A DNA stretch of 64,000 nucleotides from Escherichia coli (GTDB taxonomy: Bacteria > Pseudomonadota > Gammaproteobacteria > Enterobacterales > Enterobacteriaceae). Within the stretch, counting starts at the first letter, position 1. The number at the start of each line of letters is the position of its first letter. The stretch is taken from assembly GCF_003334315.1 (NCBI RefSeq), contig NZ_QOWR01000014.1; one strand, written 5' to 3'. The notes beneath the pieces are model-generated. The model had not been told where the DNA came from. It searched no databases and saw nothing but the letters and a program-made list of their open reading frames with translations. Both the position numbers and the translations under genes were made by a program. Of the stretch, positions 9,291 to 9,306 are shown in pieces.

Positions 9291-9306
9291 TGTGATGACG
9301 ATCACA
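9291..9306. promoter_or_regulatory. CRP-type palindrome TGTGA-N6-TCACA in hpt/gcd divergent region
   Basis: tgtgatgacgatcaca, perfect consensus half-sites, 62 bp upstream of gcd start. Confidence 0.5.

What the first reader, a model, noticed from the sequence alone, without database searches (positions are those of the whole stretch)
9291..9306. Perfect CRP-consensus palindrome upstream of gcd
tgtgatgacgatcaca gives both TGTGA and TCACA half-sites with a 6-bp spacer, centred about 70 bp upstream of the gcd start codon in the hpt/gcd divergent region. I recall gcd being cAMP-responsive, which this site would explain; its position relative to the unmapped promoter determines whether it activates or represses.
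Basis: partly seen in the sequence, partly recalled or inferred. Interest (0 to 1): 0.3.

Follow-up and report, generated by a model that had tools for sequence, protein, structure and literature searches.

The report
Known CRP site between hpt and gcd
The palindrome is real, but it is the already catalogued cAMP-CRP binding site in the E. coli hpt-gcd intergenic region, which sits on the gcd promoter to repress it and is listed as an activator site for the divergent hpt gene, so the finding is correct but ordinary.

Summary
TGTGATGACGATCACA is at 9291-9306. It is the only perfect TGTGA-N6-TCACA in the 64 kb window (0.06 expected by chance). The window is E. coli. The site lies in the 205-bp spacer between hpt (8626-9162, minus strand) and gcd (starts 9368, plus strand), centred 69.5 bp before the gcd ATG.

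The site is already known. Shimada et al. 2011 (PMC3105977) list this exact 16-mer twice. It is a Genomic-SELEX cAMP-CRP target in the gcd/hpt spacer. It also appears in rows carrying RegulonDB-style identifiers as "gcd repressor -31.5" and "hpt activator -65.5". The primary study is Izu et al. 2002, which I could not read.

The gcd promoter is not unmapped. Published genome-wide start sites place gcd +1 at window 9330 and hpt +1 at 9233, which reproduces both positions. The site covers the gcd -35 region, so it represses gcd.

New comparative data agree. In 24 other species loci with gcd beside hpt, the site is retained with at most one mismatch and the GTGA/TCAC cores are invariant, while the spacer varies freely. 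The distance to the gcd -10 is fixed. Among 56 loci without a usable adjacent gcd promoter, 55 lack the site.

Verdict: observation confirmed, interpretation supported (direction is repression, and hpt was missed), already known, low interest.

The parts
9291..9306 (.). cAMP-CRP binding site TGTGATGACGATCACA (centre 9298.5). It is a single site shared by the divergent gcd and hpt promoters.
   Evidence: Sequence. The identical 16-mer is listed as a Genomic-SELEX target (gcd< >hpt, 141294) and as 'gcd repressor -31.5 / hpt activator -65.5' in PMC3105977 Tables S3 and S4. The GTGA/TCAC cores are invariant in 25 of 25 orthologous regions while the spacer varies.
9295..9300 (+). gcd -35-like hexamer ATGACG (18-bp spacer to the -10). 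It lies entirely inside the CRP site.
   Evidence: Promoter scan. The same ATGACG-18-TATAAT is listed for gcd in the RpoD holoenzyme SELEX study PMC3946193. It is not conserved between species because it falls in the variable CRP spacer.
9319..9324 (+). gcd -10 hexamer TATAAT.
   Evidence: It is TATAAT or TATACT, starting exactly 20.5 bp from the CRP centre, in 25 of 25 orthologous regions. It sits at -11 to -6 relative to the published start site.
9330..9330 (+). gcd transcription start (G), giving a 38-nt 5' UTR.
   Evidence: Kim et al. 2012, PMC3415461, supplementary file 2: NC_000913 141263, minus strand, 5' UTR 38, with upstream sequence ...TGTGATGACGATCACACATGTTAAAACCTATAATTAATTG. It was mapped onto the window through that sequence and the gene starts.
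9368..11758 (+). gcd coding sequence (quinoprotein glucose dehydrogenase).
   Evidence: ORF end. The ATG at 9368 comes from RefSeq annotation of identical DNA. The translation begins MAINNTGSRRLL.
9240..9248 (-). hpt extended -10 element TGGTATACT (TGn + TATACT).
   Evidence: Reverse complement of agtatacca. It is an invariant block in alignment A1. TGnTAnAnT is present upstream of hpt in 24 of 24 gcd-linked loci and in 49 of 56 loci that have no CRP site.
9233..9233 (-). Main hpt transcription start, giving a 71-nt 5' UTR.
   Evidence: Cappable-seq TSS at U00096.2 141360, plus strand, score 59.3 (PMC4782308 supplement). The 5'-RACE data set gives 141361 and a second start at 141354. The start lies 7 nt beyond the TATACT hexamer.
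8626..9162 (-). hpt coding sequence (hypoxanthine phosphoribosyltransferase).
   Evidence: RefSeq annotation of identical DNA. The translation was used as the query.
9332..9344 (+). Candidate, degenerate IHF-like element TACTAAAATATTA (two mismatches to WATCAANNNNTTR) at gcd +3 to +15. This is an inference only.
   Evidence: The same alignment columns hold a perfect WATCAANNNNTTR in 10 of 25 orthologous regions, always 33.5 bp from the CRP centre. The title of Izu et al. 2002 reports IHF control of this gene pair, but the paper's mapped IHF sites could not be read.

Best explanation
This is the known cAMP-CRP operator of the E. coli hpt-gcd divergent promoter region. One CRP dimer binds TGTGATGACGATCACA. 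For gcd the site is centred at -31.5. It covers the -35-like hexamer and part of the spacer of a promoter that has a perfect TATAAT -10. Bound CRP therefore excludes RNA polymerase and represses gcd when cAMP is high, that is, when glucose, the enzyme's substrate, is absent. For the back-to-back hpt promoter (extended -10 TGGTATACT, no usable -35), the same site lies at -65.5 and is catalogued as an activator site. What is shown: the sequence, the positions relative to published start sites, cAMP-CRP binding in vitro by Genomic SELEX (published), the regulatory labels (published), and the conservation. What is inferred: steric occlusion as the mechanism of gcd repression, and how hpt is stimulated.
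For: Sequence and statistics. Gene identities. Published binding and labels: PMC3105977 Table 1 lists gcd and hpt among known CRP targets recovered by Genomic SELEX. Its text names gcd-hpt as one of 11 divergent pairs controlled by a single CRP site. Table S3 gives the 16-mer at 141294, and Table S4 gives 'hpt activator -65.5' and 'gcd repressor -31.5' with matching flanking sequence. Independent start sites: gcd at 141263 and hpt at 141361/141354, and hpt at 141360 as a strong Cappable-seq TSS. These convert to window 9330 and 9233 and reproduce -31.5 and -65.5. Promoter elements: ATGACG-18-TATAAT (also PMC3946193). Expression: gcd falls to 0.4x in a CRP* strain (PMC2743635). Conservation: in all 24 other loci with gcd linked to hpt, the site is present with at most one mismatch. 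GTGA and TCAC are invariant in 25 of 25 sequences while the 6 spacer positions vary freely, against 68% mean column identity for the whole region. The distance from the CRP centre to the gcd -10 is 20.5 bp in 25 of 25. The 61 bp around the site occur in 5423 of 5426 complete E. coli genomes. The two variants inspected change only the flank or the spacer.
Against: The primary papers (Izu et al. 2002; Yamada et al. 1993) could not be read. Footprinting and reporter data are therefore known only through databases and citations. In the CRP* study, wild-type W3110 showed no glucose effect on gcd in LB (491 against 467, ratio 1.1), so repression may be modest under some conditions. For hpt, -65.5 is not one of the positions at which CRP classically activates (about -61.5, -71.5, -82.5 and -92.5; from my own knowledge of the Busby and Ebright promoter classes), so the activation mechanism is unclear. 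Genomic SELEX shows binding in vitro, and I did not retrieve in vivo ChIP data for this site.
Confidence: 0.93

Rival explanations
1. The site is a gcd operator first. The reported stimulation of hpt is indirect: CRP evicts RNA polymerase from the back-to-back gcd promoter, whose upstream contacts would overlap those of the hpt promoter. On this reading there is no class I CRP-alpha-CTD contact. This rivals only the hpt half of the best explanation.
For: The site is at -65.5 for hpt in E. coli, and at -64.5 to -66.5 in relatives. That is out of phase with the classical class I positions (my own knowledge). The spacing to the hpt -10 drifts by 1 bp either way, while the spacing to the gcd -10 is fixed in 25 of 25. 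hpt has an extended -10 promoter that is also present in 49 of 56 loci from species with no CRP site upstream of hpt, so the promoter does not intrinsically need CRP. The site co-occurs with an adjacent gcd promoter. The two start sites are only 97 bp apart, and the title of Izu et al. 2002 stresses 'partially overlapping regulatory elements'.
Against: The curated table labels CRP as an activator of hpt, and Shimada et al. treat the pair as direct dual control. The hpt spacing is still held within 1 bp across genera, which fits some positional constraint. Natural class I-like promoters tolerate off-consensus positions. No experiment was available here.
Confidence: 0.3
2. The site activates gcd, with CRP acting as a class II-type activator.
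For: The site lies close to the core promoter.
Against: The centre is at -31.5, not -41.5, relative to the mapped start. It overlaps the -35 hexamer itself. The curated label is repressor. gcd expression falls in a CRP* strain.
Confidence: 0.02
3. The palindrome is a chance match or a structural DNA or RNA hairpin with no protein-binding role.
For: 6 of 100 shuffles of the window give one perfect match. One-mismatch matches are not enriched.
Against: The half-sites are invariant across about 20 genera-level lineages while the spacer is free, which is the pattern of a protein contact site and not of a stem with compensatory changes. The predicted DNA hairpin is weak (-3.9 kcal/mol, z = -1.3). 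The site lies upstream of both main start sites, so it is not in either main mRNA. There is no Rfam match. Binding in vitro has been published.
Confidence: 0.01
4. The physiologically relevant ligand is another regulator with a similar motif, for example a different CRP/FNR-family protein, or CytR acting together with CRP.
For: Other regulators act on this spacer: ArcA directly represses gcd (PMC3798270), the spacer carries an H-NS flag, and IHF is named in the title of Izu et al..
Against: The half-sites are the CRP type (TGTGA/TCACA with a 6-bp spacer), not the FNR type (TTGAT-N4-ATCAA; my own knowledge). Purified cAMP-CRP selects this locus. Additional regulators do not replace CRP.
Confidence: 0.03

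Closest known systems
The catalogued CRP site of the E. coli K-12 gcd and hpt promoters (rows with RegulonDB-style identifiers reproduced in Shimada et al. 2011, Table S4; primary study Izu et al. 2002, Mol Genet Genomics 266:865)
   Same: It is the identical 16-mer with identical flanks, in the same genes and at the same positions (-31.5 for gcd, -65.5 for hpt). This is the same object, not an analogue.
   Different: Nothing at the site itself. The window strain differs from MG1655 only by a net 97-bp coordinate offset elsewhere, between gcd and mraZ.
Divergent promoter pairs controlled by a single CRP site (araBAD-araC, gltA-sdhCDAB, guaBA-xseA and others; 11 cases listed by Shimada et al. 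2011)
   Same: One CRP dimer in a short spacer serves two back-to-back promoters.
   Different: Here the catalogue gives the two outputs opposite signs, repressing gcd and activating hpt. In the model system of El-Robh and Busby cited there, one CRP activates both promoters.
CRP-repressed promoters in which the site overlaps the core promoter elements (steric exclusion of RNA polymerase)
   Same: The site covers the -35 hexamer and part of the spacer of the gcd promoter.
   Different: The gcd -35 is weak and not conserved. In most relatives the promoter seems to rest on the perfect -10 alone.
Class I CRP-dependent promoters (lac type, site near -61.5)
   Same: For hpt the site lies upstream of a promoter that lacks a good -35 hexamer (positions).
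   Different: The centre is at -65.5, about 4 bp out of phase. The promoter has an extended -10 and exists without any CRP site in many other genera.

Membership tests
cAMP-CRP DNA binding site | Inverted repeat TGTGA-N6-TCACA within a 22-bp site | tested here: met
   10 of 10 core positions match, and 12 of 12 for TGTGAT-N4-ATCACA. By my own comparison, 16 of 22 positions match the AAATGTGATCTAGATCACATTT consensus.
cAMP-CRP DNA binding site | Bound by purified cAMP-CRP | not testable with these tools
   Published: gcd and hpt are among the known targets recovered by Genomic SELEX, and the 16-mer is listed at 141294 (PMC3105977 Table 1 and Table S3).
cAMP-CRP DNA binding site | Contact positions under purifying selection in orthologous promoters while the central spacer is free | tested here: met
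   GTGA and TCAC are invariant in 25 of 25 sequences. 22 of 25 match all ten half-site positions. Spacer positions show 2 to 4 different bases. The whole region has 68% mean column identity.
cAMP-CRP DNA binding site | Target gene expression depends on CRP and cAMP | not testable with these tools
   Published labels are repressor for gcd and activator for hpt. gcd is at 0.4x in a CRP* strain, but shows no glucose effect in wild-type cells in LB. Yamada et al. 1993 is cited for the cAMP dependence of gcd.
CRP repression by core-promoter occlusion (gcd) | The site overlaps the -35, spacer or -10 of the repressed promoter relative to a mapped start site | tested here: met
   The start is at 9330, so the site spans -39 to -24 with its centre at -31.5. 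It contains the -35-like ATGACG. The spacing to the -10 is fixed at 20.5 bp in 25 of 25 sequences.
Class II CRP activation (gcd) | Site centred near -41.5 | tested here: not met
   The centre is at -31.5.
Class I CRP activation (hpt) | Site centred near -61.5, -71.5, -82.5 or -92.5, on the same helical face | tested here: not met
   The centre is at -65.5 relative to the dominant start at 141360, and at -64.5 to -66.5 by -10 spacing in relatives. A minor start at 141354 would give -59.5.
Class I CRP activation (hpt) | The promoter depends on the activator because its core elements are poor | tested here: inconclusive
   The -35 region (CCGCGA with a 17-bp spacer) is poor. However, the promoter has a conserved extended -10, TGGTATACT, which is also found in 49 of 56 loci without any CRP site.

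The most novel reading that the evidence does not exclude
The CRP site is tied to the gcd promoter in evolution. It occurs wherever gcd, or a gcd remnant that keeps its promoter, sits divergently next to hpt. It holds a fixed distance from the gcd -10. hpt, in contrast, carries an older extended -10 promoter that works without CRP in most Enterobacterales, Vibrionaceae and Aeromonas. The catalogued activation of hpt from the out-of-phase -65.5 position could then be a lineage-specific and possibly indirect effect, namely relief of competition from the back-to-back gcd promoter, and not class I activation.
Probability: 0.3. Interest if true: 0.25.

Novelty: already known. Interest (0 to 1): 0.08.

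Why it matters
It matters little as a discovery. The site, its binding by cAMP-CRP, and its opposite catalogued effects on gcd and hpt were published more than twenty years ago and are in the standard E. coli regulatory catalogues. Its value here is as a positive control: a reader working from sequence alone picked out a true, functional transcription-factor site. The comparative data add a small refinement. They show a textbook footprint of selection, with invariant half-sites, a free spacer and fixed spacing to the gcd -10. They also suggest that gcd repression is the conserved function and that the hpt link is secondary.

Tried and rejected
- Primary papers: I tried to read Izu et al. 2002 by DOI and Yamada et al. 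1993 by PMC id. Neither is held. Their content is used only through their titles, through citations, and through the site rows reproduced in PMC3105977.
- Literature searches: two early searches failed for technical reasons. A search for hpt + hypoxanthine phosphoribosyltransferase + cAMP-CRP found nothing. A search for gcd + CRP + PQQ + repress gave nothing useful.
- One-mismatch scan: relaxing the motif to one mismatch shows no enrichment in the window (3 found against 2.0 expected), so only the perfect site is notable.
- RNA element: there is no Rfam match in 8500-9600 even at E = 1.
- Hairpin or cruciform: the DNA fold is -3.9 kcal/mol with z = -1.3, which is not distinctive.
- Alternative hpt promoter: TTAATA-18-TATAGG, listed in PMC3946193, would start near 9310. 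Only a weak Cappable-seq signal (score 2.0) lies at 141286, which is window 9307, against 59.3 for the start at 9233. I therefore did not adopt it as the main promoter.
- Not attempted: I did not spend a large protein search to ask whether gcd genes located elsewhere (Serratia, Pantoea, Klebsiella) also carry a CRP site. The finding is already known and the cost was not justified.

Full report
**Observation.** The window reads ...cgaatTGTGATGACGATCACAcatg..., with the 16-mer at exactly 9291-9306. It is the only perfect TGTGA-N6-TCACA in the 64 kb window on either strand. Dinucleotide-preserving shuffles give a mean of 0.06 matches, and 6 of 100 shuffles contain one. Allowing one mismatch gives 3 sites against 2.0 expected, so only the perfect site stands out. 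The symmetry extends to TGTGAT/ATCACA, and the central GACG is asymmetric.

**Context.** A 915-bp stretch around the site is 100% identical to many complete E. coli genomes and matches 5425 of 5426 of them. RefSeq annotation of an identical copy places hpt at window 8626-9162 on the minus strand. gcd starts at 9368 on the plus strand, and can and yadG lie beyond hpt. The site therefore lies in a 205-bp divergent spacer.

**The site is already described.**
- Shimada et al. 2011 (PMC3105977) list gcd and hpt among the known cAMP-CRP targets that their Genomic SELEX recovered.
- They name gcd-hpt as one of 11 divergent promoter pairs served by a single CRP site.
- Table S3 gives TGTGATGACGATCACA at genome position 141294 for the gcd< >hpt spacer.
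- Table S4, whose rows carry RegulonDB-style identifiers, gives "hpt activator -65.5" and "gcd repressor -31.5", with flanking sequence identical to the window.
[quoted passage not shown] I could confirm it only as a citation, because the paper is not held.
- The earlier Yamada et al. 1993 paper on gcd regulation is cited for the cAMP dependence of gcd and is also not held.

**Promoters.**
- Kim et al. 2012 (PMC3415461, supplement) report a gcd start at NC_000913 141263 on the minus strand. The 5' UTR is 38 nt and the upstream sequence ends ...TGTGATGACGATCACACATGTTAAAACCTATAATTAATTG. That is window 9330.
- The same table gives hpt starts at 141361 and 141354.
- Cappable-seq (PMC4782308, supplement) gives a strong plus-strand start at 141360 (score 59.3), with weak ones at 141286 and 141402. 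Position 141360 is window 9233.
- These independent start sites reproduce the catalogued -31.5 and -65.5.
- The consensus scan finds ATGACG (9295-9300), an 18-bp spacer and TATAAT (9319-9324) for gcd. The RpoD-holoenzyme SELEX study lists the same pair for gcd.
- The -35-like hexamer lies wholly inside the CRP site. Bound CRP should therefore exclude RNA polymerase. That mechanism is my inference from the geometry.
- On the hpt side, the reverse complement of 9240-9248 reads TGGTATACT, an extended -10, ending 7 nt before the start at 9233. The -35 region is poor.

**Expression.** In a microarray study, gcd signal was 491 and 467 in wild-type W3110 with and without glucose. It was 171 and 67 in a CRP* strain, and the authors list gcd among the genes down-regulated by CRP*. 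This fits repression by active CRP. The absence of a glucose effect in wild-type cells in LB shows the effect can be small under some conditions.

**New comparative evidence.** I fetched 80 loci encoding Hpt from one genome per species.
- *Where gcd is linked to hpt.* Twenty-two loci have an intact gcd divergently upstream of hpt (Escherichia, Citrobacter, Enterobacter, Leclercia, Cedecea, Pseudocitrobacter, Phytobacter, Siccibacter, Mangrovibacter, Shimwellia, Pseudescherichia).
  - One metagenome-assembled genome (L005) has an internally deleted gcd that keeps its promoter.
  - One locus (L020) is cut too short to show gcd.
  - All 24 carry the site with at most one half-site mismatch, 134.5-137.5 bp from the hpt ATG.
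- *Where no usable adjacent gcd promoter exists.* Of the other 56 loci, 55 have no site with one mismatch or fewer within 400 bp upstream of hpt. The single exception (L035) overlaps that species' own extended -10 and looks coincidental.
- *Pattern of conservation.* Across the 25 sequences (the window plus 24 loci), GTGA and TCAC are invariant. Twenty-two match all ten half-site positions, and the six spacer positions vary freely. Mean column identity for the whole region is 68%. That pattern is expected for a protein contact site and not for a base-paired stem.
- *Spacing.* The distance from the CRP centre to the first base of the gcd -10 is 20.5 bp in 25 of 25 sequences. The distance to the hpt -10 is 53.5 bp in 17 sequences, 54.5 in 7 and 52.5 in 1.
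- *Within E. coli.* The 61 bp around the site are present in 5423 of 5426 complete genomes and identical in 4761. The two variants I inspected change only a flanking base or two spacer bases.

**Mechanism and what remains open.** The gcd half is clear: it is a CRP operator on the -35 region. This makes sense physiologically because gcd encodes the periplasmic glucose dehydrogenase and high cAMP signals the absence of glucose. That link is my own reasoning.

The hpt half is less clear.
- Position -65.5 is roughly 4 bp out of phase with the positions at which CRP classically activates by contacting alpha-CTD (class I positions, from my own knowledge of the field).
- The extended -10 hpt promoter (TGnTAnAnT) is present in 24 of 24 gcd-linked loci and also in 49 of 56 loci that lack any CRP site, out to Vibrio and Aeromonas.
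- The site co-occurs with an adjacent gcd promoter.
- The two starts are only 97 bp apart, so the two polymerases' upstream contacts would overlap.

These points leave room for an indirect effect on hpt, in which CRP clears the gcd promoter. I give that sub-hypothesis about 0.3. The experiments that would decide it are listed under next steps.

**Rejected alternatives.**
- Activation of gcd is contradicted by the position, the curated label and the CRP* data.
- A structural hairpin is contradicted by the weak fold (-3.9 kcal/mol, z = -1.3), by the variable spacer with invariant arms, and by the site lying outside both main transcripts.
- There is no Rfam match in the region.

**Verdict.** The feature is already known, so interest is low (0.08). 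The comparative results are a modest refinement and not a discovery.

Noticed in passing
L002:821-1100 (Escherichia albertii NBRC 107761), aligned to window 9160-9300: E. albertii has lost most of gcd. The hpt upstream region matches E. coli up to the left half-site (…AATTTGTGA), and then jumps into the C-terminal part of gcd (remnant ORF MSFPMPVPVPFNMGMPMLGGPISTAGNVLF…). The deletion breakpoint therefore lies inside the CRP site, and hpt there has only half a site.
   Followed up: partly
L005:584-1009 (MAG CTSoil_132): gcd carries a large internal deletion that joins the N-terminal codons to the C-terminal domain. The promoter and a perfect CRP site (TGTGATAATGATCACA) are nevertheless retained.
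   Followed up: partly
window 9332-9344: Just after the gcd start site, 10 of 25 orthologous regions have a perfect IHF consensus WATCAANNNNTTR at a fixed 33.5 bp from the CRP centre. E. coli has TACTAAAATATTA, with two mismatches (a TC to CT swap). This may correspond to the IHF control named in the title of Izu et al. 2002, but the mapped IHF sites could not be checked.
   Followed up: partly
window 9307-9318: The stretch between the CRP site and the gcd -10 (consensus CTTGTTAAtaCC; E. coli CATGTTAAAACC) is almost as conserved as the half-sites, with several invariant columns (T150, T152, A154, C159 in alignment A1). It is too close to the -10 to be its -35. No explanation was tested.
   Followed up: no
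window 60938-60953: TGTCAAGCCAGTCACA (one mismatch to the CRP core) lies in the cra(fruR)-mraZ spacer, about 80 bp upstream of the mraZ ATG. The same 16-mer is listed as a Genomic-SELEX CRP site at 89550.5 in PMC3105977 Table S3.
   Followed up: partly
window 9307 and 9191, minus strand: Cappable-seq reports two weak extra starts in the hpt direction, at 141286 (score 2.0), which abuts the CRP site on the gcd side, and at 141402 (score 3.7). The first lies near the TTAATA-18-TATAGG promoter listed for hpt in PMC3946193. Transcripts from it would read through the CRP site.
   Followed up: no
window, between about 9400 and 60800: Converting window coordinates to MG1655 coordinates needs the sum 150593 at gcd/hpt but 150496 at the cra-mraZ spacer (the latter rests on the 89550.5 coordinate). 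The window strain therefore seems to have a net 97-bp difference from MG1655 somewhere in between. It was not located.
   Followed up: no
window 9163-9367: Other regulators are reported on this spacer: ArcA directly represses gcd (PMC3798270), and the spacer carries an H-NS flag in the RpoD SELEX table (PMC3946193).
   Followed up: no
hpt upstream regions of L002-L081: An extended -10 (TGnTAnAnT) precedes hpt in 73 of 80 species loci, from Escherichia to Vibrio and Aeromonas, at varying distances from the ATG (38-225 bp). This points to an old promoter type for hpt that does not depend on a -35.
   Followed up: partly
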